Positions 7,023 to 37,068 of a stretch of DNA of 64,000 bases are shown in pieces. The stretch comes from an uncultured Gemmatimonadales bacterium (GTDB lineage Bacteria; Gemmatimonadota; Gemmatimonadetes; Gemmatimonadales; GWC2-71-9). The notes under the pieces were generated by a model. It saw nothing but the letters and a program-made list of their open reading frames with translations, did not search any database and was not told where the DNA came from. Numbering within the stretch: position 1 is the stretch's first letter; each line of letters starts with the position of its first letter. A program made the position numbers and the translations under genes. The DNA is taken from positions 480,001 to 544,000 of the forward strand of contig CAVOGR010000001.1 in the NCBI GenBank assembly GCA_963695555.1. The letters run 5' to 3'.

Positions 7023-7811
7023 CTAGCTGGTCGGCGGACACCCGGGCATGGCGCATCGGTCTCTGAACCGCAGCGTATCCACAATCCGTAGGTGAGTGAC
7101 GGGTAAGTCGAACGCGGTACGACGGAATTCGAATACGCTATTCGCGCTCGACGACACTTCCTTGGCAAAGAACGCGAACGCTCCGGCGGCATGCCCAACC
7201 GAGCGGGAGACCTGACACTCCACATCCATAAGTGCAGGGGCTCGGCATGGCTGACTTGGTGTGTCCGACCGAAGCGTCGACACAGTAAACGTCGCAGTCG
7301 TACTGTTCTCCCAGATGCTGTTGGTGGGTGCGAAGTAGTAGAAGCCGTTGGCGAAGACATTCTCCCCCGATGCCAAGGCCGCCACCCGGTTCGAGGCGCC
7401 TACGGCGAGCAAGGACTCGACGGTCCCCCGATTCCGGTCGAGCCCCGACCAACCCAACACGTTGAGGCTCGACTCGACGAACCGTATGCCCTGAGGAGTG
7501 ATGACGTCCTGATCGATCAGGAAGGCTACCGCGGTGTATGCCGGGTCGGAGATCTCATCGGTGAAGCCGGTGGCCGAGTCGCCGCTCCGGGGGAGGGTTC
7601 CGACGGCAAGGACTTGCTGGATCGCCATGGCCGTGAGGCCGTCACCGCCCAGCACTGGGAATGCCGGGAAATTGACGCGCTCGGCCACGAGCACAAGGGT
7701 CGACCTGAGCGCACCATCGGCCTCGTTTGGGTCCAGTGAGCCTCCGCAGGCTGCCAGCCCGAGGACCCCTGCCACCAGGCACGCCGAGAGCCCTCTCGTC
7801 GGTCGGGTCAT
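7023..7811 (-). CDS. Hypothetical lipoprotein
   Basis: GGAG RBS, then MTRPTRGLSACLVAGVLGLAAC lipobox. No family recognised. Confidence 0.6.
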   Translation of the reverse strand: MTRPTRGLSACLVAGVLGLAACGGSLDPNEADGALRSTLVLVAERVNFPAFPVLGGDGLTAMAIQQVLAVGTLPRSGDSATGFTDEISDPAYTAVAFLIDQDVITPQGIRFVESSLNVLGWSGLDRNRGTVESLLAVGASNRVAALASGENVFANGFYYFAPTNSIWENSTTATFTVSTLRSDTPSQPCRAPALMDVECQVSRSVGHAAGAFAFFAKEVSSSANSVFEFRRTAFDLPVTHLRIVDTLRFRDRCAMPGCPPTS

Positions 7812-8212
7812 ACATCTCTCCACCGCGGGATATCCTGGGGACGACATACGGCCGCCGAAGATGCACGATTGCTGCGGCACGATCTCCGCCTGGCCTCGGG
7901 GTGCGGCGCGACTTCGCGTTTTACTCTTGCCGCTTCGTCGGGTGCTTGGTGAACGGAAGCGCCTACGACGTGGAGACCTACTGTAGGCTGCTCGCCGCGA
8001 CCAGAACACGATGTAGGGTACCACCTCTTGCCACCATGACTAGTGCCAGTGCCATTGCGGCCACCGGCTCGCTCGGCTTGAGGTCGATGGGCGCTGGGCG
8101 CGCAACCCGGACGGGTGTGGGGTGGAGGGGCTGCTCAGCTGACTCCGACTGGCGTTACCTTTCCAGCGACATATTGATCAAGCCACCCGTCCATGTAGCC
8201 CCACTCGAGCCC

Positions 8213-11200
8213 ATGCACATGACGACGGTCCGAAGCCAGCCAGTCCCGCTCACACTCGACGACGCCCGGGCGATTGCCCGCGAACACTACGGTGTGAACG
8301 CTCCGCCACGACAGCTTCCAAGCGAACGCGACCAGAATTTTCTGTTTTGCGCGCCGGCGGGTCCGTGGTACGTGCTCAAGATTGCCGGGCCGAATGACAG
8401 CACAGAGATCCTGACCGCACAGAACACGGTGCTGGAGCATGTGGCCCGGGTTGCTCCGGAGATCGGGGCACCACAACCGCTTCGTACCACGGCCGGCGAC
8501 GGCATTGCCGCCGTCCGTGCCGCGGACGGGACCACCCGCCTCGCCCGTCTCCTGTCGTACGTGCCTGGTCTGCTCTTGGCGGATGTGGCACCGCACACGC
8601 CCGAACTTCTGTCGAGCCTGGGCGCGTTCTTCGGGCGGCTCGACCACGGGCTCTCGGCGCTTGCCCTTCCGGCATTACAGCGAGAATTGCATTGGGATCT
8701 CCAACGCGCCGGCTCGGTCATCGATCGTCACGCAGCGCTCATCAGGGATCCCGCGAGGCTCGCCCTGGTGCGGCACTTCCGTCAGCGTTTCGAGACGATC
8801 GTCGCCCCAGTGCTCCCCACGCTCCGCCAAAGTCTCATCCATAACGACGGGAACGACTACAACATCCTGGTCACTCGCTCCGCTTCCGGAGAGACCGTGA
8901 CCGGGATCATCGATTTCGGCGACATGGTCGAGACCGCAACGGTCATCGAGCCCGCGGTCGCTGCGGCATACGCCATCTTGGGGAAGGCCGATCCGTTGGC
9001 CGCTGCGGCCCATGTGGTGGCGGGGTATCACGGGAGCCATCCCCTCACGGAGCAAGAGATCGGGTTGCTGTATGACCTGATTGCGCTTCGGCTCGCGGTG
9101 AGTGTCTGCCTCGCAGCGCATCAACGACGGCAGGATCCCGACAACGCCTATCTCTCCATTTCGGAGGCACCGGCCTGGGACGCCCTGGGACGCTGGCGGG
9201 ACATTTGCCCTCGACTGGCAACGTATGCCTTCCGCCAGGCGACCGGAATGCACCCGTGCCCGGCGACCCTGGAGATAGTCCAGTGGCTCGACGCCAACCC
9301 CGATCGGATCGGACCAGTCATCGAGCCCGGCCTGGACTCCGGCAGTGTGCTCGTCTTCGATCTTTCCCCCGGCAGCTACCAGTTTATCGACGTGGCCGAC
9401 CCGTTCGACCAGGCCAGCCTCGCTCGGGCGGTCACCGAGCAGATCCGGACAGCAGGGGCCCGGGTCGGAGTGGGGCGCTACAACGAGGCGCGGCGGCTCT
9501 ACCGGGCACCGCAGTTCTGCCCGCCCAATAGCGAGGTGGACGAGTGGCGCACCGTGCATCTGGGCGTGGACCTCTTCCTCGAACCCGGCTCGCCGGTACT
9601 TGCTCCGCTCGACGGCACCGTGCATAGCGTGGCTAACAATCGGGTGCCGCTCGATTACGGCCCGACCGTCATTCTTCGGCACCAACCGGATGATGCTCCG
9701 GAGTTCTTTACGCTGTTCGGGCATCTGAGCGAAGAGTCCCTCACCGCGCTCGGGCCGGGGACGCGCATCGCCAAAGGCGAGCGGGTTGGCGTGATCGGAG
9801 ACATTACGGTCAACGGAGGGTGGCCGCCACACCTCCACTTCCAGATCATCACCGACCTGCTCGACCAATCCGGCAACTTCCCGGGTGTCGCCGCGGCCAA
9901 GGACCAGGCACTTTGGCTTGCACTTTGTCCCGATCCCAATCACGTGCTCCGCATCGACGGGCTCCCCGCGCCGGATACCGGACGGAGCCCCGCCGAGATT
10001 GTAGACGTGCGGCGCCGGCACCTGGGTCCGACGCTCAGCGTGAGTTACCGGCGGCCGCTCAAGATCGTGTCGGGGCGCATGCAGTGCCTGTACGATCATC
10101 TGGGCCGGGAGTTCCTCGATGCCGTGAACAACGTGGCCCATGTCGGCCATTGTCATCCGGCGGTCGTCGAGGCCGCGCAGCGGCAAACGGCACTGCTCAA
10201 TACCAACACCCGCTATCTCCACGACACGATCATCGACTACACGGAGCGCCTTCTCTCGACGTTGCCCGAGCCGCTCCGGGTCTGCTACCTCGTCTGTTCC
10301 GGCAGCGAGGCGAACGAGCTGGCGATCCGGCTGGCGCGGGCTCACACCCAAGCGACGGACGTCGTCGTGATCGACGGCGGCTACCACGGCAACACCACGG
10401 GCCTCATCGAGCTGAGTCCCTACAAGTTCAACGGCCTGGGCGGGGCAGGCGCACCGTCGCACGTCCACGTCGTACCGACGCCCGACTGTTACCGGGGACT
10501 GTACACCGACCCTCGAGAAGCTGGCCGGCGGTATGCCGCTCATGTCGCCGAGACCACGCTCCAGACCAGAAAGCGAGGCCGGCATGTGGCGGCCTTCCTC
10601 GCGGAGTCCTTTCCGAGCTGCGCAGGACAGATCGTGCTGGCACCAGGGTTCCTGGCCGAGAGTTACCGGTTGATCCGGGAGGCCGGGGGCGTGTGCATTG
10701 CCGACGAGGTGCAGGTGGGCTTCGGACGGGTGGGCTCGGACTTCTGGGGCTTCCAGACGCACGAAGTGGTCCCCGACATCGTCACGATGGGAAAGCCGAT
10801 CGGGAACGGCCATCCACTCGGCGCGGTCGTGACCACGCCCGAGATTGCGGCGTCGTTCGACAACGGCATGGAGTATTTCAACACGTTTGGCGGCAACCCG
10901 GTCTCCTGTGCGGTGGGATTGGCGGTGCTGGACGTGATCGAGGGGGAGGGGTTGCAGCAGCACGCCCGGGACGTGGGCGACATGCTGAAGGGCGAACTCC
11001 GTCGATTGGCAGGCGCGCACGAGATCATCGGTGATGTCCGCGGAGCCGGGCTCTTTCTCGGCGTCGAGTTGGTGCGCGATCGCGCGACCCGCGAACCCGC
11101 CGGTCGGGAGGCGTCCTACATCGCCAACCGCATGCGCGATCGCGGCGTGTTGCTCAGCACGGACGGACCGCACGGCAATGTGCTCAAGATCAAGCCGCCG

Positions 11201-11299
11201 ATGGTTTTCGACGTCGCCGACGTTTCGCGCCTGGTCGATGCGTTGGCGCGGGTCCTCGCTGAGCCCAAGTTGAAAACGCTTGCCGCGGGAGATGGATAG
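8213..11299 (+). CDS. Triple fusion: APH-type phosphotransferase (hydroxylysine/homoserine kinase II-like) + M23-like domain + class III PLP aminotransferase/phospho-lyase
   Basis: [24 protein letters not shown] (kinase); [17 protein letters not shown] (M23 fold); [37 protein letters not shown] (class III). Start 8213 or 8219. Confidence 0.9.
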
Positions 11300-18345: not shown

Positions 18346-18564
18346 ATGCCTGAGCAGATCACGAGAAAAGCGCGGGTCGGACGGGCTGCTGCAACCCTTG
18401 GCATCCTCCTGCTCATCGCGAAGCTCGTCATCTCAGTGTTCGGCCTACCGAGCTCCGGCTCCCGCACACTCATCTTTGCCGGGGTCGTGTTCCTCTTCGT
18501 CGGGCTTGCCCTGATCCAGCACGACAAGCGGTCAGGTCCGAACGACGGGATTCCGCACTCATGA
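18346..18564 (+). CDS. Small hypothetical membrane protein (72 aa, two TM helices)
   Basis: GAGGAG RBS before ATG 18346; two hydrophobic segments. Confidence 0.65.
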   Translation: MPEQITRKARVGRAAATLGILLLIAKLVISVFGLPSSGSRTLIFAGVVFLFVGLALIQHDKRSGPNDGIPHS

Positions 18565-18760
18565 CCTCCGGGCAGCGACCAGGCAACATGAGGTAAGGCA
18601 GCAGTCGGGGCTTCCCTGCCATGGTCTAGCCCTCGCCTCCTTCTCGCTTCATTCTTGCTTCATCCTATCGCGCGAACTTTGGGGACTATTGCTCTCTCAA
18701 TTGGCTCGTCCCCGTGAGTTTGCGGCCTCGCGCCTCCCTACGTTTGTTCGGAGCATCGCC

Positions 18761-20440
18761 ATGAGCACTTCTGCTGGAGCCGTTCAGGGACTCGATCGGG
18801 AGACCCTCGACATGACGCTCGAGGCCATCCGGGATTTCGCCGATCAGAACCTGCCGCAGGAGCTGCTCCTGGAACTGGATGCCACCCACGAGTTTCCGGA
18901 GGCGCTGATCCGGGCCATGTGCGGCGAGTTGGGCATCCAACTCCTGTTTATTCCCGATGCCTACGGCGGGATGGGAGGCGGCTCGTTCGATGTCTACCGC
19001 GTCTGTGAGCTCATGGGATCCATCGACCTCGGCGTCGCCACCGGGGTGCTGGCCACGTTCCTCGGCAGCGACCCGATTCTCTGGGGCGGCACCGACGAGC
19101 AGAAGGCCCGCTGGATGACCCGTATCGCCGAAGAAGGCCTGCTCATGGCCTACGGCGCGACCGAGCCCGAGGCCGGAAGCGATCTGGGCGCGCTGCGCAC
19201 CACTGCGGCGCGCATCGAGGACGCCGGGACAGTGACCGGCTACCGGTTGAACGGCGCCAAGATGTGGATCAGCAACGGCGGCTTCGCGGATCTGTATAGC
19301 GTGTTGGCCCTGGCGCCCGGCGGACCGACCTGGTTCGTCATGGAAAAGGGCGCTGAGGGGTTCACCTACGGCAAGCCCGAAGACAAGCATGGCATCCGCT
19401 CGAGCAATACGGCGGCGCTCTTCTTCGACAACGTCGGTATTCCGGCCGAGAACCTCATCGGCACGGAGGAGGGCCAGGGGTTGGTGCAGGCGCAGTTGGT
19501 GTTCGGATATACCAGGCTGATGGTCGCCGCGTTCGGGCTTGGGGCAGGATGGGCCGCACTCGACCGTGCGTTGGAATACTCCACTACCCGAATCCAGGCG
19601 GGCGGCCCGCTCTCCGGGAAACAGGGCTACACCCACAAGCTGATCGTGCCGCATGCATGCCGGCTCGAGGCCGGCCGGGCTTTCATCGAAGAGACCGCCA
19701 TGCGGCTGGACGGTGGCGAAGGCAGTCTCAATACCGAGGGTGCCATCGCCAAGTACATCGCAACGGAGGCTGGAAACGATGCCGCGGAGGCGGCGATCCA
19801 GGCCCTCGGTGGGTACGGGTACACGCGCGAGTACATCGTGGAGAAGATCAAGCGGGACGTCCGCATCACCACCATCTACGAAGGCACGTCCGAGATCATG
19901 GAGATGACCATCGCGCGCGATCGGTGGCAAACCCACTTGAAGACGCGCGGGCAGCACTATCATGACGACGCGACCCGGCTGCGGGAGCTGGCCGCGTGCA
20001 GCCCGGGCGTGGGCGCTGATGTGGCTGCGCTCGCGGCGGATGGCCTTGGTCACCTCCTGGAGCGCGCCCGGGTCGGACGGCTCACCCGGAATCAACACGT
20101 GCTGTTCCGGCTGGGTGCGCTGATTGCTCGGGTGGAAGCGGCGGGAGCGCTGGCGCGGCGAGCGGCGGCCGCGGCGAACGGAGCGCTGCCGCCGAAGGCG
20201 GACCAGCGACTGGACCCGGAGTCGCTGGCATTGGCCAGTCGTATTTATGCGCGCGAAGCGGCTTCCGCGGTTGTCTCCGAAGGACTACGCTGGGTGCTTG
20301 GTGCGGACGGGGTGCCGTCGGCGGAGCTCGCGGCATTCGAGGCTTTGCTGGGTACTGGAGCGATCCATTCAGCACAGGCCGGGTTGGTGGACGACATGGA
20401 CCGTCTGGCGCAACGGCTGTATCGGCGGTATGAGGCTTGA
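18761..20440 (+). CDS. Acyl-CoA dehydrogenase family protein with C-terminal extension
   Basis: YGATEPEAGSD, LNGAKMWISNG, EDKHGIRSSNT, IQALGGYGYTREY, IYEGTSEI; GGAG RBS. Confidence 0.93.
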   Translation: MSTSAGAVQGLDRETLDMTLEAIRDFADQNLPQELLLELDATHEFPEALIRAMCGELGIQLLFIPDAYGGMGGGSFDVYRVCELMGSIDLGVATGVLATFLGSDPILWGGTDEQKARWMTRIAEEGLLMAYGATEPEAGSDLGALRTTAARIEDAGTVTGYRLNGAKMWISNGGFADLYSVLALAPGGPTWFVMEKGAEGFTYGKPEDKHGIRSSNTAALFFDNVGIPAENLIGTEEGQGLVQAQLVFGYTRLMVAAFGLGAGWAALDRALEYSTTRIQAGGPLSGKQGYTHKLIVPHACRLEAGRAFIEETAMRLDGGEGSLNTEGAIAKYIATEAGNDAAEAAIQALGGYGYTREYIVEKIKRDVRITTIYEGTSEIMEMTIARDRWQTHLKTRGQHYHDDATRLRELAACSPGVGADVAALAADGLGHLLERARVGRLTRNQHVLFRLGALIARVEAAGALARRAAAAANGALPPKADQRLDPESLALASRIYAREAASAVVSEGLRWVLGADGVPSAELAAFEALLGTGAIHSAQAGLVDDMDRLAQRLYRRYEA

Positions 20441-20496
20441 GTCGACAGCGTGGTTGTCACGCGCGAATCCTCGATGTTGGAAGGCTATGAGAAAGT

Positions 20497-23400
20497 ATGA
20501 AATCGACGGCTGACAGGGCAATCGCTATTGTCGGGGTGGGAGCGGTCCTGCCGGACGCACCGAACGCCGCGTCGTTCTGGACCAACCTTTGTGAAGGTCG
20601 CTACAGCGTGTCCGAGGTCCCAATCGAGCGCTGGGATGTCGCGAGATACTTCGATCCCGATCCCAAGGCCGTGGACAAGACCTATTCGAAGATCGGCGGA
20701 TGGGTACGGGAGTTCGAGTGGAATCCCCTCGGGTGGCGCTTGCCTATTCCACCGAAGGTGAGTGAGGTGATGGACCTCGCCCAAAAGTGGGCGATCGTCT
20801 CGGCCCGGGAGGCCTTGGCGGATTACGGCTATCCCGACCGCGCCCTCGATAAAGAGCGCACCGCAGTGATCATGGGCAACGCACTCGGCGGGGATTATCA
20901 CCTGATGACGGCCATGCGGGTGCTCTTTCCGGAAATCGCCGCGGAACTGACCGGGTCCAAGAGTTTCCAAGCATTGCCCGGGGCAGTGCAACGTGCCGTC
21001 GTCGACGAACTGCGTTCCGGCGTTCAGGCCCGGATCCCAGACATCACGGAAGACACCATGCCCGGCGAGCTGGCGAATATTGTCGCCGGCCGCTTGGCCG
21101 CCCTGTTCGATTTCAAGGGCCCGAACTACATCACCGACGCCGCCTGCGCCTCAGCGATGGCCGCCGTCAACGCGGCGGTCGAAGGGCTGAACGGGCACGA
21201 CTTTGACGCCGTGCTCACCGGCGGCATCGATGCCAACATGAGCCCGTCGACCTTCGTCAAGTTCTGCAAGATCGGAGCACTCTCGGCCACCGGGACCCGC
21301 CCCTATGCGGAGGGAGCCGACGGCTTCGTCATGGGCGAGGGTGCTGCGTGCTTCCTGCTCAAGCGACTCGACGACGCTGAACGTGCGGGCGACCCGATCT
21401 ATGCCGTGATCCGCGGGCTCGGCGGCTCGAGCGACGGACGGGGCAAGGGCATCACAGCCCCCAATCCCGTCGGCCAGCGGTTGGCCGTGGTCCGGGGCTG
21501 GGAGCGACGCGGGCCTGCTTCCCGAGGCAGGCGACTTGGTCGAAGGGCACGGGACCTCGACCAAGGTCGGAGACGTGGTCGAGGTGGAGAGCCTGACGGA
21601 AGTGCTTTCAACGTCACGGTTTGCCAGCGCAATCCGTCGCCTTGGGATCCGTGAAATCCAACATCGGTCACTTGAAGGCGGCTGCGGGGGCCGCGGGCCT
21701 CCTCAAGGCAACGCTCGCACTGCACCACAAGCTCATGCCGCCCAACATCAACTTCCACGCGCCGAATCCCGCAATCGACTTCGTCCGCTCACCGTTCCGC
21801 GTCACCACCGAGCTTCAACCGTGGGAAAAGCCTGGGGTCAACGGAGAGTCAGTACGCCGCGCCGGCGTGAGCGCCTTCGGATTCGGGGGGACCAACTTCC
21901 ATGTCGTGCTGGAGGAGTACGTGCCGGGCCGGCTCGCGCGAGAGCGGACATTGGTGGCTTCGGCCGGACTCACCGCCGGGTCGTCGGAGACAGGTGCGGC
22001 ACTCAAGTCTCCGCTTCGCGGAGCGATGGTCGTGGGTGGTTCCTCCGAAGCCGAGATTGCCAGCCGGCTCCGGCTCATCAAAGCCGAGGCGGATCGAGGA
22101 ATCGCACCGCCGCCCGAGGCGCCGCTCGCACGGGACCTCGCGGCACCCGTCCGACTCGCCATCGACTACGGCGATGCGGCTGACTTGAGCGATCTGGCGG
22201 GCAAGGCGCTGCAGGCGTTCGAGGAGGGACAGGAGGGCAGGTGGCGGGCGCTTCGCAACAAGGGGGTGTACCTCGGACGCGGTACGCCCGGGAAGGTTGC
22301 CTTCCTCTTTACCGGCCAGGGCTCGCAGTACGTGAACATGCTGGCGGAGCTCCGGGCCACGGAACCCATCGTTGCCGAGACGTTTGTCGAGGCCGATCGG
22401 ACGATGGAACCGTTGATTGGACGTCCGCTCACAGATTGCATCTTCGTCGACCCAACCAATGAGGACCTCGCGGCCCAGGCGGCCGAAGGTCTCCGTCAAA
22501 CGGCCATCACTCAGCCGGCCGTGCTCACCGTCGATACGGCGCTCGCTCGTCTGCTCGACGCGTACGGCATCGTGCCCGACATGGTGATGGGCCACAGCCT
22601 CGGCGAGTACGGCGCATTGGTGGCGGCTCAGGCACTCCCGTTTGCCGGTGCCCTGACCGCCGTTGCGGCGCGCGGCAAGGCGATGACCGAACTGTCCCTT
22701 GGAGACAACGGTCTCATGGCTGCCGTGTTCGGACCGGTTGACCGCGTCGAAGCGCTGTTGCGGGACACGCCGGGTTACGTCGTGGTCGCCAACCTGAATA
22801 GCAGGAAGGAATGCGTGATCGGCGGGGCCACCAAGGCGGTCGAGGCCGCGATGACCGCACTTCAGGCGGAAGGACTGCGTGTCGCACAGCTTCCGGTGAG
22901 TCACGCGTTTCATACCAAGATCGTAGAGCCGGCAGCGGCACCGCTCACCGACGTGTTGACGGGGCTCGGCGTTCGGCCTGCCGCAATCCCAACCATCTCG
23001 AATGTGACCGGTGAATTCTATCCCATGGGTCAGGGCGTAGAGCCGCAGATGATCGAACTCCTGGGCCGCCAGATCGGGTCGCCGGTGCAATTCGTGAAGG
23101 GCCTCAACACGCTCTATGAGTCAGGCGCCCGAGTGTTCGTGGAGTTGGGTCCGAAGCGCGTCCTGTACGGCCTGGCCGACGATGTGCTGGGTGAGCGCGC
23201 CGGTTTCGCCGCGTTCTACACCAATCATCCTCGAACCGGAGACGTTGCCTCGCTCAACCGCGCGCTGTGCGGACTCTATGCGGAAGGCCTCGGACGTGGC
23301 GCAGAAGAGCCTGTGCCCGAGATTCATGCCGTGTCACCGCGTCCGGCTTCAGCTCACGCGCGTGCAGGCATACCCGCGGCGCCCGCCGTTCCTCAGCTGC

Positions 23401-26400
23401 CGCGTGTCGGAGATGCCGAGTCTCCAGATCGGCTCCTGACCTTGGGCCGCATGTTTGCCGACTTTCTCGAGCAGAGTTTCGAGGTCTACTCCGGCGGTGC
23501 CGCGCGACAGGTCCGAGTTGGGATCACCGGGGCATCACTCGGTCTCCCTGGCACCGAGCGGGTCTTCGAAGAAACCAACCTCGAGCGCATTCTCGGCGGG
23601 GAGGTGTTGATCGGGAACATTCCCGACAGATTCCGCCGTACCATGGCCGACATGCACGTCACACGCTTGGTGAAGGGAGCGGGTGGCGAGGCCAACTTCG
23701 TGTCGGTCAACGACCCCAGCGGCGTCATCAAGCTCGCCGGCATCGGCGGGAAGCTCGACCTGGCGGGCGAGTACGGCTTTCCCGAAGACCGGGTGCAGGC
23801 GCTCGATCGGATTACCCGCCTGGCCATCGCGGCGGGGATCGAAGCCCTGCGCGATGCCGGCATTCCTCTCGTCCGGCGATACAAGACCGCCACTACCGGA
23901 TCGATGCTCCCAGTTGGCTGGAGTCTCCCCGAGGAAATGCGGGATGACACCGCAGTCATCTTCGGGTCGGCGTTCCCTGGAATCGATGCCCTTGCCACGG
24001 CCATGGATGCCTATCATGAAGATCGCTCACGTCGTGGACGGCGTGACGAGCTCCAGGCGTTGCGGACGGGCCTCCTGGCACGTGACGATGCTGCCGCCAT
24101 CGCCGAACTGGATCGACGCATCGAAGCGTTGACCAGTGAGATCGAGGCCAATCCTTTCGAGTTCGACCGCCGGTTCTTGTTCCAGGTGCTCACGATGGGA
24201 CACTCGCAGTTCGCCGAATACATCGGCGCCCGCGGCCCCAACGTCCAAACCAACTCGGCCTGCGCCACCAGCACGCAAGCGGTGGCACTGGCCCAGGACT
24301 GGATCCAGGCGGGACGCTGCCGCCGCGCCATCGTGCTGACCGCGGACGACATCACCACCGACGCGCTGCTGCCTTGGATGGCGAGCGGCTTCCTGGCCTC
24401 GGGCGCTGCTGCTACCGACGAGCGGGTGGAAGATGCGGCCCTGCCGTTCGACCGCCGCCGGCACGGCATGATCATAGGCATGGGAGCCGCCGCCATGGTG
24501 GTGGAAGACCTGGCGGCTGCGGCGGAGCGCGGGATCCAGCCGGTTTGCGAGGTATTGGGGACCATCACCGCCAACAGCGCCTTCCACGGGAGCCGCCTCG
24601 ACGTCGATCACATCGTCGGCGTGATGGAAGAGCTGGTCGCCGGTGTCGAACGCCGCTGGGGCCTGTCCCGGCATCAGATCGCAGCGCAGACCGTGTTCGT
24701 CTCCCACGAGACCTACACGCCGGCCCGCGGCGGGAGTGCGAGCGCAGAAGTGGAAGCGCTCAGGCACGTGTTCGGCGGTGTGGCCGATTCGATCGTGATC
24801 GCCAACACCAAGGGATTCACCGGCCACGCGATGGGAGTGGGAATCGAAGACACCCTGGCGGTCAGGATGCTGGAGACCGGCATCGTCCCGCCCGTTGCCA
24901 ACTTCCGCGAGATCGACCCGGCACTTGGGGCACTCAATCTCAGCCGTGGCGGCAGCTACCCCGTCATGTACGCGCTCAGGCTGGGTGCCGGATTTGGATC
25001 GCAGATCAGCATGATGCTCCTGAAATGGACGCCGCCGCCGGATGGGGCGAGGCGCTCCCCAGGTGACATGGGCTACCAGCACCGCATCGCGGCCCCCCCA
25101 GCATGGCAAGAGTGGCTGACCCGGGTGACCGGATACGATGCGCCAAACTTGGAAGTCGTCCGGCGGACCTTGCGGGTCAAAGATCAGGGACCACCGAAGC
25201 GAGAGCCAGCGCGCAAGCCGCTCAGGCGTGCGCCGGACCTGCCGCTCGTCGGTGCGCCGGTTCGTGAGGCCGGCCCACCACCGGTCCGTCCTCTGTCCCA
25301 TGTTCCCGCTCCCGAATTGGTGACCCGGTCGGCGGCTGTGGTCCACCCGCCTGCAGCCGCTCCAGCCGTGGCCGTCCCGCCTGTGCGCGCGGAAGCGTCC
25401 AAGGTGCCCGGCGCGGATGGAGTGGCCGAACGAATTCTCGCGATCGTCGCCGAACAAACCGGCTATCCAAAGGACATGTTGGCGCTCGATCTCGATCTGG
25501 AAGCCGATCTCGGCATTGATACCGTGAAACAGGCCGAGATGTTCGCCGCCATCCGGGATGCGTATAACATCGAACGAGATGAGAACCTGGCCTTACGAGA
25601 CTATCCGACCCTCGCGCGGGCAATCGAGTTCGTGTATGAGAAACGTCCCGACCTGAAGCAGGTCGGGGCAGCTGCTCCCATTGCCACGACCGTACCATCT
25701 CCGTCGGCCGCCCCCGCGCCGCCACTCGTCGCAATCCCGTCGGATGGCATCCGGGAGCGGGTCCTCGCGATCGTGGCCGAGCAGACCGGGTATCCGCCCG
25801 ACATGCTCGACCTCGACCTCGACCTCGAGGCCGATCTGGGCATCGACACGGTGAAGCAGGCGGAGATGTTTGCCGCCATTCGGGAGGTCTACGGCATCGA
25901 GCGCGACGAAACGCTCGCGTTGCGCGACTATCCAACCCTCGCGCGGGCCATCGAGTTCGTGTACGAGAAACGTCCCGACCTGAAGCAGAGTGGCGTTGCC
26001 ACTGCCGCTTCTCCAGCAGCTCCAATTGTTCAGCCAACTTCCACGGCTCGACCCGCTGCCGCCGAAGCTGACAGCGTGCGGGAGCGGGTCCTTGCCATTG
26101 TGGCCGAGCAGACCGGGTATCCGCCGGACATGCTCGACTTGGACCTCGACCTCGAGGCCGATCTCGGCATCGACACGGTAAAGCAGGCGGAAATGTTCGC
26201 CGCCATCCGGGAGGTCTACAGCATCGAGCGTGACGAGACGCTCGCGCTGCGCGACTATCCAACCCTGGCGCACGCGATCGAGTTCGTGTTCGAGAAGCGT
26301 CCCGACCTCCGGGGAACCAGGCCCGATGCAAAGGCGGAGCTGCAGGCCGCGCCGCCGGTGGAGCAAGACGTCGCATTACCTGACTCCGACCGTGTGGTGC

Positions 26401-29201
26401 GCGACAGCGTGCTATCGATCGTGGCCCAACAGACGGGGTATCCGCCCGATATGCTCGACCTCGATCTCGATCTCGAGGCCGATCTCGGTATCGACACGGT
26501 GAAGCAGGCGGAAATGTTTGCCGCCATCCGGGAGGTGTACAGCATCGAGCGGGACGAAACGCTGGCGCTCCGCGATTATCCAACCCTAGCGCACGCGATC
26601 GAGTTCGTGTTCGAGAAGCGGCCGGACCTGCGAAGCGGGACCCCGCCCGATGCAAGACCGGTCGTTTCTTCGGACTCAGCGATCGTACCGCCAAGCGCAA
26701 CCACGGTGCATACTGGCCCGGTATACGCAGGCTCGGAAGCGGCGGCGCAGGCGGTGCCGCGCCGCGTGCCGGTTGCACTGCTGCGGCCGCCGGCCTCGCG
26801 ATTCACTCGAACCGGCGTTCAGCTCGGAGCAGGCGACCGAGTACTCGTGGCCTTGGACGTGGGCGGCGTGGGGAAGGCTCTGGTCCGGCAGCTGACCAAG
26901 CGCGGGGTGACGGCTCTGGTCCTGGATGATTGTACCGATCCGGAGGATCTGCAGCGCCGAATCGGCGAGTGGACCGCCGACGGTCCTATCAATGGGGTGT
27001 ATTGGCTGCCGGCGCTCGACCCGGTGAGTGATGCCGACCTGCTCGATCCCGAGGCGAGGTTGGTTGCCATCAACTGCCGGATCAAGTCGCTGTTCCGACT
27101 CATGCGGGCGCTATATGATCAGCCACTGTTCCTCATCACAGCCACGCGGCTCGGCGGGAAGCACGGCTACGATGAAGCCGGCGCCACCGACACGATTGGT
27201 GGTGCGGTTGTCGGCTTTACCAAGGCGTTTGCTAGAGAAAGGCCCGAGTGCCTGGTGAAGGCCGTTGATTTTGCTCCGTCGCGGAAGACGACAGCCGTGG
27301 CCGACCAGCTGATTGACGAGACTCTGTACGACAAGGGTATCGTCGAAATCGGCTACGGGGATGGCCATCGGTGGACGGTGGGTCTCGAGTCCCGGGCCAT
27401 TGAGTTTGGTGACCAACTGAGCGGTGCCGATCGAGTATTCGTTGTCACAGGCGCGGCTGGAAGCATCGTGTCCGCCATCGTGGCCGACTTAGCGGCGGCC
27501 TCGAAGGGAATCTTCTGGCTACTCGACCTTACTCCGGAACCAAATCCCGACGATGCCGACCTCCAGCGGCTCGAGTCGGATCGTGACGGGCTCAAGCGGG
27601 ATCTGTTCGACCGCCTGAAGCGATCGGCAGAGCGCGTGACCCCCGCCATGGTGGAGCAGGAGATCACGCGGATCGAACGATCCCGGGCGGCGCTCGCCTC
27701 GATTCGTGCGGTCGAAGCGCTTGGAGGACACGCTCGGTATCGCGCGGTGGACCTGAGGGATGTCGATCGGGTGGCACAGGTGATGTCCGAAGTCGTCCAG
27801 GAGAGTGGACGGGTCGACGTGCTGCTGCATGCGGCGGGGCTCGAGGTCAGCCGCCCCCTTCCCAAGAAGGAGCCTCGTGAGTTCGACCTCGTCTTCGACG
27901 TCAAGATCGACGGGTGGTTCAACCTGCTTCGAGGCTTGGGCGATGCCCCGCTGGGTGCCGCGGTGGTATTCAGCTCGATCGCCGGCCGCTTCGGCAACGC
28001 CGGGCAGACCGACTATAGCGCGGCCAACGACATGCTCTGCAAGGCCATGTCGGCACTACGCCGCACCAGACCGGATACCCGCGGAATTGCCATTGATTGG
28101 ACGGCATGGGCGGACATCGGGATGGCCACGCGCGGGTCCATACCCGCCATCATGAAGCAGGCGGGGATCGACATGCTGGCGCCCGAGGCTGGAATCCCCG
28201 TGGTCCGTCGGGAATTGACCGCCGGCACCCGGGGAGAGGTGGTGATCGCGGACGGCCTCGGCATCATGCTGGACGAGACCCAGGCCAGAGACGTAATGCT
28301 GGGCGGAGCCGAGTCGTCGGCGGCTGGGCTCATGGTCGGAACGGTCGAATCGTTTGGTCCCTACGGCGGGCTCGTCGTTCAGACCCGGCTCGACCCCGAG
28401 GCCCAGCCGTTTCTCCGGGACCACCAGATCGACGGCACGGCCGTGCTGCCGGGTGTGATGGGGCTCGAAGCGATGTCCGAGGCCGCGCTCGTCGGATTTC
28501 CCGACCGGTTCGTCGGCGCCCTCGAGCGCGTCGAGTTTCTGCAGCCGTTCAAGTTCTATCGCGGCGAGGCGCGCACCGTCACGGTCAAGGTTCAGTACGC
28601 CCTCGACGGTAAGGATATCCTGGCCAACTGCCGGCTCGAGGGGTCGCGGCAGCTGCACGGCCGGACGGAGCCCGAGGTCACGACCCACTTCACCGGCACC
28701 GTCCGGCTTACAGCGAAGCCGCCCGACGAGGCACGCTTACGCAGCGTGCCGCCGGTGTCGGACGCCGTGGTAGGAAGCGATGCGATCTACCATGTCTACT
28801 TCCACGGCCCCTCCTATCGCGTGGTGGGCAACGCCTGGCGGGCCAAGGACGTCCTGGCCGGTCAGCTCGCGCGCGGCCTGCCCGCCGGGCAGGAGCCGGC
28901 TGGCGGGTCTACCATTGTCGCGCCGCGGCTCGTGGAGCTCGCATTTCAGACTGCTGGTCTTGCCGAGATCGCGCAGTCGGAGCGCATGGGCCTGCCGAGC
29001 CGGATCGAACGCCTCGAGTTCCGGCGTGCGGCCAACGGCGAACCGGACGGTTCAACCGCGCTGGTCGAGGAAGCCGGCGATGGAGCATTCGACGTCGACG
29101 TGACCGACAAGACCGGTCGTGTCTTGCTGTCGTTGCGCGGATACCGGACCAACCCGCTGGGCCGGGTTGAGAACGCCCCGTTCCAGGCGCTCAAGGCCTG
29201 A
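20497..29201 (+). CDS. Pfa-like iterative type I polyketide/fatty-acid synthase KS-AT-KS-ACPx4-KR-DH (about 2900 aa when joined), interrupted by two +1 frameshifts near 21505 and 21605
   Basis: KS1 DAACAS / EGHGTST / NIGHLK; AT GQGSQ, GHSLG, HAFH; KS2 NSACAT / SHETYT / TGHAMG; four [13 protein letters not shown]s; [39 protein letters not shown]. The ORF track splits it into 20497..21654, 21536.. and 21621..29201. Confidence 0.92.
25420..26630 (+). repeat. Four tandem ACP-coding direct repeats (about 230 bp each) separated by Ala/Pro-rich linkers
   Basis: Near-identical [36 protein letters not shown]...[21 protein letters not shown] units starting near 25420, 25750, 26077 and 26395, differing mainly at third codon positions. 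Confidence 0.95.
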
Positions 29202-29920
29202 TGGAAGCGACGATTCGTACAACGGCCGGGCCCGGCACGGTGGTCACGCTGGTGACTGGACGAGCCGGGAAGGTTCCCGCCGGCGACCGGTGGCTTTCCC
29301 CTCTCGAGCGGTCGGTCGAGGCGAGACTCCGCTGGCCCAAGCGCCGGTCGGACTGGCGGCTTGGCCGGTGGGTCGCGAAACGGGCGGTCATCGCCTGCTT
29401 GCAGGACGAGCAAATCGAGCCGCCCGACATCGAAATTCTCGCGCAGGAAACCGGCGCACCCGGTGCCCGCGTTCTCTCGGGCCCGGTCACGGTTCCGGTG
29501 AGCGTCTCCATAAGCCATAGCGATGGAGTTGGCCTGGCCGCCGCCGCCGTTGGCGACGTCGCGCTCGGATGTGATGTGGAGCGGATTGAACCACGCACCG
29601 AACGGTTTGTCGCGGATTACTTCACCGCTGCGGAGCGGGAGCGGGTCGCTCGGACCGTGGCGGTCGATCGTCCGACGGTCGTCACGCTCATCTGGAGTGC
29701 CAAGGAAGCCGCGCTCAAGGTGCTGGGGGAAGGCATGCGTCTCGATGCCAGGGCCGTCAGCGTCGAAGTACCCATTGGGCCGCACGCGGCCTGGGACCAG
29801 CGTTCCGCGTTCCGCGTCCGGCTGCCGGATGCTCGGTGGATTCCGGGGTGGTGTTGGGTCGGCGACGGGTTCGTCTGGACGATCCTGGGTGACCGCCCGG
29901 CGACCATCGCGCTCGCCTGA
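29201..29920 (+). CDS. 4'-phosphopantetheinyl transferase, Sfp-type
   Basis: SVSISHS, LGCDVE, WSAKEAALKVLGEG; TGATG overlap with the PKS stop. Confidence 0.92.
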   Translation: MEATIRTTAGPGTVVTLVTGRAGKVPAGDRWLSPLERSVEARLRWPKRRSDWRLGRWVAKRAVIACLQDEQIEPPDIEILAQETGAPGARVLSGPVTVPVSVSISHSDGVGLAAAAVGDVALGCDVERIEPRTERFVADYFTAAERERVARTVAVDRPTVVTLIWSAKEAALKVLGEGMRLDARAVSVEVPIGPHAAWDQRSAFRVRLPDARWIPGWCWVGDGFVWTILGDRPATIALA

Positions 29921-30195: not shown

Positions 30196-30615
30196 ATGAG
30201 CAGGATGACTTCGGGTATTGCCGTTTCACTGTTGGCCCCACTGGCACTCATGGTCGGCAGCACCACCCTCGTGGCCCAGGAGGCCATGGCCGAGCATTGC
30301 AGCGCTTCCTTCTCTCAGGAGACGATCCCGGTTCAGGTCGAGCCGGTGATGTTGAAGGTCACCATGTCGCAAGGGATCGGGGACCTCACGGGTGGAATGG
30401 CGAGCGAGGAGAGCGGCATCGTGGTGAAGGAGGTCAAGACCGCGGACGAGGGCATGATCCTGTCGCTAGACACCAGCAAGGCCGTGGCCGGCGAGTGGAA
30501 GCTCGGCTTCACGGGCTCAGAAGGCGCGTGCGATGGCAAGGTCAAGGTCAAAGCCGCCGCGGAACAGACCAAGGATGTTGAGAAGGCAAAGGAAGTCGAA
30601 AAAGCAAAGGAGTAG
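30196..30615 (+). CDS. Hypothetical secreted protein
   Basis: AAGGAG RBS, signal peptide ending LVA-Q, two Cys, C-terminal VEKAKE repeat. Confidence 0.75.
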   Translation: MSRMTSGIAVSLLAPLALMVGSTTLVAQEAMAEHCSASFSQETIPVQVEPVMLKVTMSQGIGDLTGGMASEESGIVVKEVKTADEGMILSLDTSKAVAGEWKLGFTGSEGACDGKVKVKAAAEQTKDVEKAKEVEKAKE

Positions 30616-30678
30616 CACCCGAGTCGGGCGAGGGTTGAGCATAGAGTACGTCCAGGCGTAGGTGAGACTCGTGGTGCG

Positions 30679-30713
30679 GCGGCTGGGTCCTTGTGGCCCA
30701 GCCGCTTTTTTTT
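30679..30713 (+). terminator. Intrinsic terminator between convergent genes
   Basis: GCGGCTGGG...CCCAGCCGC followed by T8. Confidence 0.9.
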
Positions 30714-35650: not shown

Positions 35651-35677
35651 CCCCGTCAGGGTTTCCGATGGCGCGCA

Positions 35678-35712
35678 CGGAGCCGGCGATCTCGCCGGCT
35701 CCGCTTGCGTTT
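35678..35712 (+). terminator. Terminator hairpin after the fasciclin gene
   Basis: CGGAGCCGGCGA-tc-TCGCCGGCTCCG then CTTGCGTTT. Confidence 0.65.
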
Positions 35713-35910
35713 GACAGCAATCCGGCCGGGAATCAATTTGGGAATCGGGCCCGACTGGCCCGGCCGGCGAAGCACGAGGTGTCAACCATGCGGCCCCGGA
35801 ATCGTCCCCTCTTCCAGATCCCGCTACTGGGCCGTCACGTGTCCCGCCCCGCCCAGAGGACTGAGGAGCCGATCCGTTGCTGTCCGCCGGCACGAAGGAG
35901 TAACGACACC

Positions 35911-37068
35911 ATGCACCGTTTCCCCCGTCCTTTCGGGCTCATCGTAATGTTGGGCGCCATCGCCGCCTGCGGCAATTCGTCGGGACCCACCGGGATCGGT
36001 CTGCTCGGCACTCCTCAGGTTGCAGCCGGAGACAACCACTCCTGCTTCCTCGACACGGCCGGGATCATCCGGTGCTGGGGCTGGGGTGCCCTGGGGCAGC
36101 TTGGCGCTGGAGATACGCTCAACAGCAGCTCACCCGTGCAGGTCGAGGGAGGCATTGGCTACCGCTGGCTCGCGGTCGGCAGCAATCACTCCTGCGGCAT
36201 CCTGGAGGATGGGAGGGCGACGTGTTGGGGGGCGGCCCACGCGGGAGAGCTGGGTAACGGCATGAGCCAAGGCAGGGTCACCACACCCGACGAGGTCCTC
36301 GGTGGCTCTCGGTTCACCACTCTCAGCGTGGGCGACGGCCACACCTGCGGAATCGCGCTGGCGGGCGAGGCGCTCTGCTGGGGTGAGGGTGCAAAGGGCC
36401 AACTCGGAAATGCAGATATCCAAGACCAGGCGGCGCCCGTTGGGGTTGCCACGGCTGTACAATTCAAGTCGATTGCCGCGGGACAGCTATTCACCTGCGG
36501 CGTCTCGACCCAGAATTCGGCGCATTGCTGGGGCGATAACACGTGGGGCCAGCTCGGCAGTGGCGTATTGGGCGGAACGAGCGCGACCCCGGTGGCGGTC
36601 ATCGGCGGGCACCAGTTCACGGCTATCTATGTTGGCAAGTCGTTCGTCTGCGCCTTGTCGACCGACCGGGATGCCTTTTGTTGGGGCGCCGCCTCGGGCG
36701 GGCGCCTTGGCAACGGTGGAGGGGCCGACACGGCGATCGCGGTCCCTGCGCCGGTCATCGGGGGCCACAAGTTCGAGGCCCTCGCCCTGGGGAGGGATCA
36801 CGCGTGCGGCATTGCGACCGATGCGAGCGCTTATTGTTGGGGCTTGAACACCTACGGGAAGCTGGGCGACGACATCGGTCCCTCGAGCCAAGAGCCGATC
36901 CAGGTCAGCGGAGGCCTCACATTCACCGGCATTACCGTGGGATTGGATCATACGTGTGGGGTGACGACCACCGGCAGCGGATACTGTTGGGGTCAGAACC
37001 TCATCGGTCAGCTCGGCCGCTCCCGGCCAGTTCAGAGCAGCGCCCCGCTCAAGGTCATGGGCCTCTAG
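35911..37068 (+). CDS. RCC1/BLIP-II repeat beta-propeller lipoprotein
   Basis: AAGGAG RBS, lipobox IAAC, seven repeats of the G..H[ST]C....CWG....G.LG type. Confidence 0.92.
   Translation: MHRFPRPFGLIVMLGAIAACGNSSGPTGIGLLGTPQVAAGDNHSCFLDTAGIIRCWGWGALGQLGAGDTLNSSSPVQVEGGIGYRWLAVGSNHSCGILEDGRATCWGAAHAGELGNGMSQGRVTTPDEVLGGSRFTTLSVGDGHTCGIALAGEALCWGEGAKGQLGNADIQDQAAPVGVATAVQFKSIAAGQLFTCGVSTQNSAHCWGDNTWGQLGSGVLGGTSATPVAVIGGHQFTAIYVGKSFVCALSTDRDAFCWGAASGGRLGNGGGADTAIAVPAPVIGGHKFEALALGRDHACGIATDASAYCWGLNTYGKLGDDIGPSSQEPIQVSGGLTFTGITVGLDHTCGVTTTGSGYCWGQNLIGQLGRSRPVQSSAPLKVMGL

What the first reader, a model, noticed from the sequence alone, without database searches (positions are those of the whole stretch)
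18761..29920. Compact three-gene lipid/polyketide system: ACAD + KS-AT-KS-ACPx4-KR-DH synthase + coupled PPTase
Seen: co-oriented genes with a 56-bp gap and a TGATG overlap. The synthase has two KS domains, a malonyl-type AT (HAFH), four ACPs, KR and a C-terminal double-hotdog DH, but no ER, TE or reductase release domain, and no pfaB/C/D nearby. Known: PfaA is KS-AT-ACPn-KR-DH and needs partner subunits. Inference: a self-contained secondary-lipid synthase with unusual chemistry. Similar architectures may be catalogued in genome surveys, but I know of no characterised product.
Basis: partly seen in the sequence, partly recalled or inferred. Interest (0 to 1): 0.8.

Follow-up and report, generated by a model that had tools for sequence, protein, structure and literature searches.

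The report
Type R lipid synthase, threonine carriers
This bacterium carries a catalogued but still uncharacterised three-gene lipid-making unit, and its carrier domains hold a threonine where textbook carrier proteins hold the cofactor-bearing serine.

Summary
The three co-oriented genes are there: ACAD (18761-20440), KS-AT-KS-ACPx4-KR-DH synthase (20497-29201) and a PPTase (29201-29920), with the 56-bp gap and the TGATG overlap.

It is not a new architecture. It fits the 'Type R' secondary lipid synthase of Shulse & Allen 2011 (PMC3098273), whose product is uncharacterised. This scan has reported the same synthase on other DNA at least five times.

- **Frame breaks:** the synthase frame is broken by two 1-bp insertions (21506, 21605). 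Both are missing from the intact sister-species gene and from contigs of four public runs. An assembly error or a private mutation is therefore likely.
- **Partner enzyme:** a VLCAD-shaped ACAD lies directly upstream in 74 of 74 related loci with upstream DNA. Many Acidobacteriota loci add WS/DGAT, an Fe-S oxidoreductase, EtfBA and a single-chain ACC. No PfaB/C/D-type subunit is linked.
- **Second ketosynthase:** KS2 keeps Cys-His-His in 50 of 50 sequences, so it is not a chain length factor.
- **Carrier domains:** every ACP domain has Thr at the phosphopantetheine-serine position (261 of 261 motifs in 80 loci). My paper searches found no description of this.

The product and the ACAD's role (enoyl reduction or oxidation) remain inferred.

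The parts
18761..20440 (+). Acyl-CoA dehydrogenase family flavoprotein, 559 aa: ACAD core plus a ~170-aa C-terminal helical domain (VLCAD/ACAD9-type shape). The catalytic YEG glutamate (E374) is invariant.
   Evidence: Pfam ACAD N/M/C. Alignment A1, 24 sequences, 78% mean column identity. Model pLDDT 81.7. Foldseek top hit human VLCAD 7s7g, TMq 0.73 over 556 columns. Directly upstream of the synthase in 74 of 74 loci with upstream DNA.
20497..29201 (+). Type R (PfaA-like) iterative synthase gene KS1-AT-KS2-ACPx4-KR-DH. In this assembly it is split into ORFs 20497..21654 and 21621..29201.
   Evidence: The intact 2782-aa orthologue in the sister genome is L011:4986-13334 (-).
21506..21506 (+). 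First extra base relative to the sister genome and to four public runs (a +1 shift inside KS1).
21605..21605 (+). Second extra base (a further +1 shift). The 99-bp stretch between the two sites encodes the EGHGTST histidine of KS1.
22302..23165 (+). Malonyl-type acyltransferase domain (GHSLGE, HAFH).
   Evidence: Pfam Acyl_transf_1 1.2e-41. GHSLGE in 50 of 50 and HAFH in 49 of 50 sequences.
23400..25100 (+). KS2: a second, FabF-like ketosynthase with an intact Cys-His-His(+Lys). The 2011 paper labelled it 'CLF'.
   Evidence: C881, H1029, K1064 and H1069 invariant in 50 of 50. Best solved relatives are FabF enzymes, 4ddo at 9.6e-24. 57-98% identical across the 80 loci.
25437..26630 (+). Array of four tandem ACP domains, each reading [11 protein letters not shown]. 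The Thr codons at the canonical Ser position start at 25521 (ACC), 25848, 26175 and 26496 (ACG).
   Evidence: TRF period 327, 3.7 copies. Pfam shows 4 PP-binding stretches. Codons. Alignment to solved ACPs.
27678..28115 (+). Ketoreductase catalytic subdomain (YSAAND; Tyr and Asn invariant).
   Evidence: Pfam KR 1.8e-24.
28362..29198 (+). PKS-type double-hotdog dehydratase with HxxxGxxxxP.
   Evidence: PKS_DH_N 3.5e-11 and PS-DH 1.9e-12. The His is present in 49 of 50 sequences.
29201..29920 (+). Sfp-type 4'-phosphopantetheinyl transferase, translationally coupled (TGATG). It shows the motifs VSISH, GCDVE and WSAKEA.
   Evidence: Pfam ACPS 1.4e-17. Distant match to Sfp 1qr0/4mrt with the motifs aligned. 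Overlap read.
30678..30706 (+). Terminator-like hairpin (12-bp stem, T8). It possibly ends the transcription unit, after a small non-conserved ORF at 30196-30615.
   Evidence: The ORF is conserved only in the sister genome.

Best explanation
The unit is a member of the 'Type R' secondary lipid synthase family, from a Gemmatimonadales genome. One iterative PfaA-like megasynthase carries two active ketosynthases, a malonyl acyltransferase, four tandem carrier domains, KR and DH. It is preceded by a dedicated VLCAD-shaped acyl-CoA-dehydrogenase-family flavoprotein and followed by a dedicated Sfp-type PPTase.

Proposed working, inferred unless marked:
- The PPTase puts phosphopantetheine on the invariant Thr of each carrier domain.
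- The AT loads malonyl units.
- KS1 and KS2 elongate, probably at different chain lengths.
- KR and DH give trans-2-enoyl thioesters.
- The flavoprotein supplies the enoyl/acyl redox step that the synthase lacks. Most likely it reduces the enoyl chain with electrons from ETF (menaquinol-linked where EtfBA and the Fe-S oxidoreductase are encoded beside it), giving a long, largely saturated chain.
- Release is unknown here. In Acidobacteriota a linked WS/DGAT suggests ester formation.

Shown by the data: the domain set, the intact catalytic motifs, the ACAD linkage, the Thr at the carrier site, and that the two frame breaks are private to this assembly.

My odds: family identity about 0.9; Thr is the cofactor site about 0.6; ACAD acts as reductase about 0.35-0.4.
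For: - **Architecture and motifs:**. The description in PMC3098273 (KS-MAT-CLF-ACP(3-6)-KR plus PPTase; ACC between the two genes in Koribacter) matches the window, and matches Korobacteraceae-type loci carrying synthase-ACC-PPTase. The PPTase reads VSISH (the paper's P1b' hShxH) and TGAP (its P1a x(G/D)xP).
- **Family size:** 3917 database proteins with E<=0.001 among 8000 scored; 277 confirmed relatives among 329 matched stretches of species genomes.
- **ACAD linkage:** 74 of 80 loci have the ACAD hit directly upstream, and the other 6 have no upstream DNA. Full-length orthologues in 30 relatives occur only in G002 and G004, the two genomes that also have the synthase.
- **ACAD shape and kin:** VLCAD/ACAD9-type fold. 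The nearest named families include ETF-linked reductive enzymes: acryloyl-CoA reductase AcrC at 246.9 bits (below its cut-off of 640), and the butyryl-CoA dehydrogenase and CarC of ETF complexes.
- **Linked genes in other phyla:** EtfB, EtfA, an Fe-S/CCG oxidoreductase, WS/DGAT and ACC.
- **Thr at the carrier site:** 185 of 185 motifs in 50 synthases; 349 of 349 in 111 database proteins; 261 of 261 in 80 loci, using all four Thr codons. The Thr aligns on the Ser of solved ACPs. The folded ACP has no conserved Ser. A few distant members carry Ser, or Ser and Thr together, in the same motif.
- **Frame breaks:** the intact sister gene, and both extra bases missing in the one contig over the sites in each of 4 of 4 runs.
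Against: - No product, no expression data from this organism and no biochemistry exist for any member that I could find.
- In carrier-protein pathways, ACAD-family enzymes are known to me (recalled: FkbI, TcsD, prolyl-carrier dehydrogenases) as oxidants, not reductants.
- This genome has no adjacent Etf genes. An EtfD-like oxidoreductase, WS/DGAT and a single-chain ACC were not found in its 87%-complete assembly. The control for rang in none of the 14 control genomes, so that negative is weak.
- A housekeeping FabK-like reductase exists on contig C5 and could serve instead.
- E. coli ACP(S36T) cannot be phosphopantetheinylated (PMC3340395, passages), so the cofactor on Thr is unproven.
- As assembled, the synthase gene is broken.
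- The named Type R reference genomes were not compared directly.
Confidence: 0.6

Rival explanations
1. The flavoprotein works in the usual oxidative direction. It either dehydrogenates a long-chain acyl starter to an enoyl starter, or adds a further double bond to the growing chain. The ER-less synthase then makes a polyene-type chain, as enediyne PKSE-type synthases do. Electrons leave through ETF to the quinone pool.
For: The VLCAD-type shape fits long saturated acyl substrates. EtfBA plus a membrane Fe-S/CCG oxidoreductase is the ordinary beta-oxidation electron path. Distant family members have the PPTase fused at the C-terminus, as KS-AT-KS-ACP5-KR-DH-PPTase (P0176), which resembles the PKSE layout as I recall it. 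Known carrier-linked ACAD homologues are oxidants (recalled).
Against: KR plus DH already deliver 2-enoyl intermediates, so an oxidant has no obvious saturated substrate within the cycle. A dedicated ACC and a WS/DGAT in many loci point to a bulk lipid. No PKSE-type thioesterase is linked in the 80 loci (gene orders).
Confidence: 0.3
2. In this strain the synthase is a real, recent pseudogene: two private 1-bp insertions in KS1 have killed it and the unit is non-functional.
For: Both insertions stand in the assembly, and they remove both KS1 histidines from the first ORF. The unit is patchy in the phylum, with 2 of 251 sampled genomes including this one, so loss is common.
Against: The remaining 2526 codons are open, and no other frame-breaking indel separates the gene from the sister orthologue. 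Run X1 holds pieces identical to the window, yet its contig over the sites lacks both bases. Two same-direction 1-bp insertions 99 bp apart would fit local consensus errors in the assembly.
Confidence: 0.15
3. The Thr-bearing ACP-like domains carry no phosphopantetheine and serve as structural or docking repeats. The chain is then carried on CoA or on a separate carrier protein.
For: S36T abolishes modification of E. coli ACP. The ACAD family normally uses CoA thioesters.
Against: The rest of the ACP motif is invariant (D42, V44, K45, Q46, A47 and E48 in 24 of 24). A PPTase gene travels with the synthase or is fused to it. Ser and Thr versions occur within one tandem array (P0232). The only other PP-binding hit in the genome is the housekeeping AcpP, which has Ser.
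Confidence: 0.1
4. It is a canonical PUFA (Pfa) synthase whose PfaB/C/D partners lie elsewhere in the genome.
For: The best NCBIfam hit is the PfaA subfamily model.
Against: The score is below the model's cut-off: 906.7 against 1010.1 for the intact orthologue. No second megasynthase is in the genome. The FabK-like, FabA-like and KS genes on C5 are small stand-alone type II genes. No such partner is linked in any of the 80 related loci.
Confidence: 0.03

Closest known systems
'Type R' secondary lipid synthase gene cluster (Shulse & Allen 2011, PLoS One 6:e20146, PMC3098273; Ca. Koribacter versatilis, Ca. Solibacter usitatus, Elusimicrobium minutum, Roseiflexus spp.)
   Same: One pfaA homologue with KS-MAT-second KS ('CLF')-ACP(3-6)-KR, followed by a PPTase gene. 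Some members have an ACC gene between the two. The PPTase has the P1a and P1b' motifs. The product is uncharacterised.
   Different: In the passages I read, the paper does not mention the upstream ACAD (0 occurrences of 'acyl-CoA dehydrogenase'), the C-terminal PKS-type DH, the intact Cys-His-His of the 'CLF', or Thr at the ACP site (0 occurrences of 'serine' or 'threonine'). Gemmatimonadota are not among its members (0 occurrences).
PfaA of bacterial PUFA synthases (PfaABCDE; NCBIfam TIGR02813)
   Same: KS-MAT-tandem ACPs-KR order, an iterative logic and a dedicated PPTase. It is the best-scoring NCBIfam model.
   Different: The score is below the family cut-off. There is an extra KS2 between AT and the ACPs. 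No PfaB, PfaC (FabA-type DH) or PfaD (FabK-type ER) partners were found. The carriers have Thr instead of Ser.
Enediyne-type iterative PKS (PKSE: KS-AT-ACP-KR-DH-PPTase; layout recalled, not from a call)
   Same: An ER-less iterative type I synthase with KR-DH followed by a PPTase. The PPTase is fused in distant family members such as P0176.
   Different: Two KS domains, 3-6 ACPs and a separate PPTase here. There is an obligate ACAD partner, and no enediyne-associated genes are linked.
Very-long-chain acyl-CoA dehydrogenase / ACAD9 type (PDB 7s7g, 2uxw, 8phf; bacterial 2z1q, 3owa)
   Same: An ACAD core plus a C-terminal helical domain (TMq 0.70-0.77), with the catalytic Glu in YEG.
   Different: Only 22-28% identical. 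By sequence the core is nearer to short- and medium-chain ACADs at 32-37%. It is always encoded beside a megasynthase.
ETF-dependent enoyl-CoA reductases of the ACAD family (Bcd-EtfAB 5ol2, CarC 6fah, AcrC NF042972; Ascaris rhodoquinol-ETF-driven 2-methyl-branched enoyl-CoA reductase, recalled)
   Same: The same flavoprotein family, running in the reductive direction with ETF as donor. This is the precedent for the proposed ER surrogate.
   Different: Those enzymes act on short acyl-CoA substrates in fermentation. No evidence on direction or on ACP versus CoA exists here.

Membership tests
Type R secondary lipid synthase (Shulse & Allen 2011) | A single pfaA homologue with the order KS-MAT-'CLF'-ACP(3-6)-KR | tested here: met
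   Pfam order KS, AT, second KS, 4 PP-binding, KR. Homologues have 2-6 ACP motifs, mostly 3-5.
Type R secondary lipid synthase (Shulse & Allen 2011) | A downstream PPTase gene with the P1a x(G/D)xP and P1b' hShxH motifs | tested here: met
   PPTase at 29201-29920 with a TGATG overlap. TGAP and VSISH are read in the translation. The motif definitions come from the paper.
Type R secondary lipid synthase (Shulse & Allen 2011) | The proximal KS groups with the named Type R members in the KS tree | tested here: inconclusive
   The named genomes were not available by name. Indirect support: 57-70% identical KS2 in Korobacteraceae, Sulfotelmatobacter, Bryobacteraceae and other Acidobacteriota MAGs, with the synthase-ACC-PPTase order the paper gives for Koribacter.
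Canonical PUFA synthase PfaA (TIGR02813) | A score over the curated cut-off of the PfaA subfamily model | tested here: not met
   906.7 bits against a cut-off of 1010.1 for the intact sister orthologue. The window's larger ORF scores 692.3.
Canonical PUFA synthase PfaA (TIGR02813) | Partner subunits PfaB (AT), PfaC (KS-CLF-FabA-type DH x2) and PfaD (FabK-type ER) in the cluster | tested here: not met
   None in the window and none in the 80 related loci. In the genome only small type II genes were found on C5. The genome is 87% complete.
Chain length factor (CLF) | A KS-like domain without the active-site cysteine | tested here: not met
   Cys881, His1029 and His1069 are invariant in 50 of 50. 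The nearest solved relatives are active FabF enzymes.
Canonical acyl carrier protein domain (PF00550) | A serine in the D-S-(L/I/V) motif that bears 4'-phosphopantetheine | tested here: not met
   All four domains read DT. 261 of 261 motifs in 80 loci do the same. The Thr aligns on the Ser of 5y08, 2lol and 2ehs. Whether Thr carries the cofactor is not testable with these tools.
Acyl-CoA dehydrogenase, VLCAD/ACAD9 architecture | The three-domain ACAD fold with the catalytic Glu, plus a C-terminal helical domain | tested here: met
   Pfam N/M/C domains. Y373-E374-G375 invariant. Model and Foldseek matches.
Sfp-type PPTase | Two-lobed ~230-aa enzyme with the GxD(V/I)E and (W/F)xxKE(S/A) motifs | tested here: met
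   239 aa. ACPS 1.4e-17; 4PPT_N 0.00069, 20.1 bits, below its cut-off of 27. GCDVE and WSAKEA align with Sfp's GIDIE and WSMKES.

The most novel reading that the evidence does not exclude
The whole Type R family uses threonine, not serine, as the attachment site for 4'-phosphopantetheine. If so, its co-inherited PPTase is a Thr-modifying enzyme that keeps these carriers apart from the housekeeping AcpS/AcpP system. This would be the first natural O-phosphopantetheinyl-threonine that I know of. In addition, the obligate VLCAD-shaped flavoprotein would be a quinol/ETF-driven enoyl reductase for a type I synthase.
Probability: 0.4. Interest if true: 0.8.

Novelty: new member of a known kind. Interest (0 to 1): 0.5.

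Why it matters
Type R synthases are common in uncultured soil and sediment bacteria: Acidobacteriota, Gemmatimonadota, Calditrichota, Actinomycetota and others. Nobody knows which lipid they make.

Two features seen here make the question testable:
- **An obligate flavoprotein partner.** It may stand in for the missing enoyl reductase.
- **An invariant threonine at the carrier site.** The serine-only rule for phosphopantetheine attachment is textbook, and S-to-T is used as a null mutation in E. coli.

If threonine carries the cofactor, carrier-domain detection rules would miss or mis-score these domains. PROSITE-type patterns, as I recall them, require Ser. The cognate PPTases would then also be new tools for orthogonal protein labelling.

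For this window alone the result is modest. It is one more member of the family, probably with two assembly errors in the gene.

Tried and rejected
- **ACAD-ACP complex:** Complex prediction with ACAD (A1) + FAD + ACP (A2) gave no verdict (scores 0.30 and 0.21, mark 0.32). It is not used either way.
- **Failed search:** the whole-protein search of relatives got no usable answer from the machine. It was replaced by the KS2 query.
- **Literature on a product or on ACAD linkage:** searches returned nothing relevant. One search listed only BGC surveys naming 'hglE-KS', which I saw in the listing only. One search found only the 2011 paper to be relevant.
- **Literature on Thr at the carrier site:** plus the passages showed no natural example. 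The library lacks most subscription journals, so this is not proof of absence.
- **Promoters:** the scan found 0 sites against 1.5 expected, which is uninformative.
- **Small ORF 30196-30615:** conserved only in the sister genome, so it was rejected as part of the conserved unit.
- **WS/DGAT in the own genome:** the family search found nothing, but its control rang in none of the 14 control genomes. tblastn also found nothing.
- **RNA contigs:** runs X2 and X3 cover the gene at 90-99% likeness. DNA carry-over cannot be excluded, so this is no proof of transcription.
- **Habitat:** I infer none from the run labels.
Full report
**Observation**

The window (G000:C1:480001-544000) has four co-oriented plus-strand ORFs:
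- 18689..20440, where the ATG at 18761 gives the 559 aa seen in the sister genome;
- 20497..21654 (385 aa);
- 21621..29201 (2526 aa);
- 29201..29920 (239 aa).

Pfam gives these domains:
- ACAD N, M and C domains for the first ORF;
- the ketosynthase N-terminal domain for the second;
- for the third, the end of that KS, Acyl_transf_1, a second ketoacyl-synt hit, four PP-binding stretches, KR, and PKS_DH_N with PS-DH;
- ACPS for the fourth.

No ER, TE or reductase domain is found.

The flanks are unrelated. Upstream, on the minus strand, lie argD, argH, argG and argR. Downstream, on the minus strand, lie a histidine kinase and a sigma-54 response regulator.

**The broken frame**

The sister species G002 is 98% complete. 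Its locus L011 is the same record as L012, a Gemmatimonadales MAG. It has the same synteny and one open synthase gene of 2782 aa, between a 559-aa ACAD and a 239-aa PPTase.

Across about 19 kb of alignment, the synthase differs by only three indels:
- two single extra bases in the window, at 21506 and 21605;
- 354 bp, which is one more ACP repeat in the window.

The 99 bp between the two extra bases encode the EGHGTST histidine of KS1. As assembled, KS1 is therefore split.

I laid the contigs of four public runs (two DNA, two RNA libraries) on 20400-22400. In each of the 4 runs, the one contig that covers the sites lacks both bases. Run X1 also holds pieces identical to the window.

So the insertions are private to this assembly. 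I think consensus errors are more likely than a real pseudogene (about 0.15), but only the source reads can tell.

**What it is**

The genome is a 3.57-Mb, 14-contig assembly, 87% complete. Its nearest named relatives are Gemmatimonadales MAGs.

The KS2 region finds 3917 proteins (E<=0.001 among 8000 scored). The full-length ones have 2600-3100 aa and the same Pfam set. It also finds 277 confirmed relatives in species genomes from Gemmatimonadota, Acidobacteriota, Calditrichota, Bacteroidota, a KSB1-type bin and Actinomycetota.

Shulse & Allen 2011 (PMC3098273; passages read) describe exactly this as 'Type R'. It is one pfaA homologue, KS-MAT-CLF-ACP(3-6)-KR, with a downstream PPTase. They found it in Koribacter, Solibacter, Elusimicrobium and Roseiflexus, with an ACC gene in between in Koribacter. 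The product is uncharacterised.

The window's PPTase shows their P1a and P1b' motifs (TGAP and VSISH).

The canonical PfaA model scores below its cut-off: 906.7 against 1010.1 for the intact orthologue. PfaB/C/D-type partners are neither linked nor found in the genome.

Earlier notes of this scan reached the same filing for the same synthase on at least five other genomes.

**Distribution**

The unit is rare and patchy among close kin. KS2 was found in 3 of 31 genomes (own, G002, G004) and in 2 of 251 sampled genomes of the phylum; both counts include G000.

The ACAD tree of 65 rows (quick method, LG+G4) mostly follows phyla:
- the 4 Gemmatimonadota rows and the window form one clade (SH-aLRT 99);
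- that clade lies next to two Acidimicrobiia-type rows.

**Domain state (window plus 49 full-length homologues)**

| Domain | Motif | Conservation |
|---|---|---|
| AT | GHSLGE | 50 of 50 |
| AT | HAFH | 49 of 50 |
| KS2 | Cys, His, Lys, His | 50 of 50 each |
| KR | Tyr and Asn | 50 of 50 |
| DH | His of HxxxGxxxxP | 49 of 50 |

KS2 is therefore an active, FabF-like ketosynthase, not a chain length factor.

**The partner flavoprotein**

In the 80 fetched loci the ACAD lies directly upstream of the synthase in 74. The other 6 begin inside the synthase.

It is 64-77% identical across phyla outside the genus, including its C-terminal 170 aa, which hold many invariant Arg and Lys.

Among 30 relatives, all have ACAD paralogues (at most 42% identical, core only). 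Full-length orthologues occur only in G002 and G004, the two that have the synthase. G001 has a 92-aa contig-end fragment that is 65% identical to the C-terminal part. G018, one of the 30, is marked unpublished; only its negative counts rest on it.

The model (pLDDT 81.7) matches VLCAD/ACAD9-type enzymes over its whole length (7s7g, TMq 0.73).

**Linked genes elsewhere**

Many loci, mostly Acidobacteriota, read WS/DGAT - Fe-S/CCG oxidoreductase - EtfB - EtfA - ACAD - synthase - single-chain ACC - PPTase. The clusters were seen in this many loci:

| Gene | Loci |
|---|---|
| WS/DGAT | 33 |
| Fe-S/CCG oxidoreductase | 47 |
| EtfB | 39 |
| EtfA | 45 |
| Single-chain ACC | 46 |

Actinomycetota loci have ACAD-synthase-ACC-PPTase. 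Gemmatimonadota, Calditrichota and Bacteroidota loci have the minimal ACAD-synthase-PPTase.

The window's genome has one generic EtfBA pair on C7. No EtfD-like protein, WS/DGAT or single-chain ACC was found in it.

This confirms an earlier scan note (e1-3056880) for the Acidobacteriota. It also shows that the invariant core is ACAD plus synthase.

**The carrier site**

All four ACP domains read [12 protein letters not shown] profile of 24 such domains aligns the Thr exactly on the cofactor Ser of solved ACPs: DLGVDSI in PigH 5y08, and DSL in 2lol and 2ehs. No Ser is conserved anywhere in the domain.

Thr stands at this position in:
- 185 of 185 motifs of 50 synthases;
- 349 of 349 motifs in 111 of 120 database homologues, the other 9 being truncated before the ACPs;
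- 261 of 261 motifs in the 80 loci, with codons ACC 109, ACG 109, ACT 23 and ACA 20.

These three sets overlap in part. A single base change would give Ser, so Thr is being selected.

Among 150 representatives clustered at 50% identity:

| Motifs found | Representatives |
|---|---|
| Thr only | 110 |
| Ser only | 3 |
| Both Ser and Thr | 2 |
| A single odd motif | 1 |
| None (fragments) | 34 |

- One of the two 'both' cases (P0203) is dubious, because its Ser sits in a doubtful motif.
- P0232 has Ser- and Thr-type domains in one array.
- P0176 (Ser) is KS-AT-KS-ACP5-KR-DH with a fused PPTase.

The genome's housekeeping AcpP has the normal DSL. An AcpS-like gene and a third PPTase-family gene exist elsewhere.

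E. coli ACP(S36T) cannot be modified (PMC3340395, passages). I found no paper describing a natural Thr site (passages). The 2011 paper has no occurrence of 'serine' or 'threonine', and no earlier scan note mentions it.

**Mechanism**

These points are shown by the data:
- the complete set of intact KS, AT, KR and DH motifs;
- a dedicated PPTase;
- an obligate flavoprotein partner;
- no ER or TE.

The rest is inferred. Synthesis is iterative, from malonyl-CoA, on Thr-linked arms. The flavoprotein carries out the missing enoyl/acyl redox step.

I favour reduction (about 0.35-0.4) for three reasons:
- KR and DH leave nothing saturated to oxidise;
- the family has ETF-driven reductases;
- quinol-to-ETF-to-ACAD reduction has a precedent in Ascaris mitochondria (recalled).

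The oxidative, polyene rival gets about 0.3. Release in this genome is unknown.

**Verdict**

This is a real, ordinary member of a family catalogued in 2011, with a probably artefactual frame break. The threonine carriers and the obligate flavoprotein are family-wide features that I could not find in print, and they give direct experiments.

Noticed in passing
window 7727-11299 (+): One 1190-aa ORF joins a phosphotransferase (APH) domain, an M23 peptidase domain and a class-III aminotransferase. This is an unusual three-part fusion.
   Followed up: no
window 30196-30615 (+) and 30678-30706: A small ORF with a signal-peptide-like start and no Pfam match is followed by a strong terminator-like hairpin (12-bp stem, T8). 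It is conserved only in the sister genome.
   Followed up: partly
window 15150 and 15331 (argH, minus strand): Against the sister genome, argH shows a 2-bp and a 1-bp indel 181 bp apart. This is a compensated frame difference, or an alignment effect in a divergent stretch. The window's frame matches Pfam ASL_C2 there.
   Followed up: partly
window 18539-18633 versus L011: The sister genome has about 1 kb more DNA between argR and the ACAD gene, possibly one extra ORF (~354 aa), which the window lacks.
   Followed up: no
G000:C5:487548-489434 (L092:7548-9434, minus strand): A 628-aa ORF joins a GCV_T folate-binding piece to a FabK/NMO-type domain, next to FabA-like and FabB/F-like genes. It is either a fusion or another frame problem in the assembly.
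   Followed up: no
G001:C389:3-275: A same-genus MAG without a detectable synthase holds a contig-end fragment 65% identical to the C-terminal part of the cluster ACAD. This may be a second, divergent copy of the unit that did not assemble.
   Followed up: no
P0176 and P0232 (database proteins): Distant family members have the PPTase fused to the C-terminus of the synthase, and they carry Ser-type or mixed Ser/Thr carrier domains.
   Followed up: partly
window 35668-37068 (+): A 466-aa RCC1-repeat protein.
   Followed up: no
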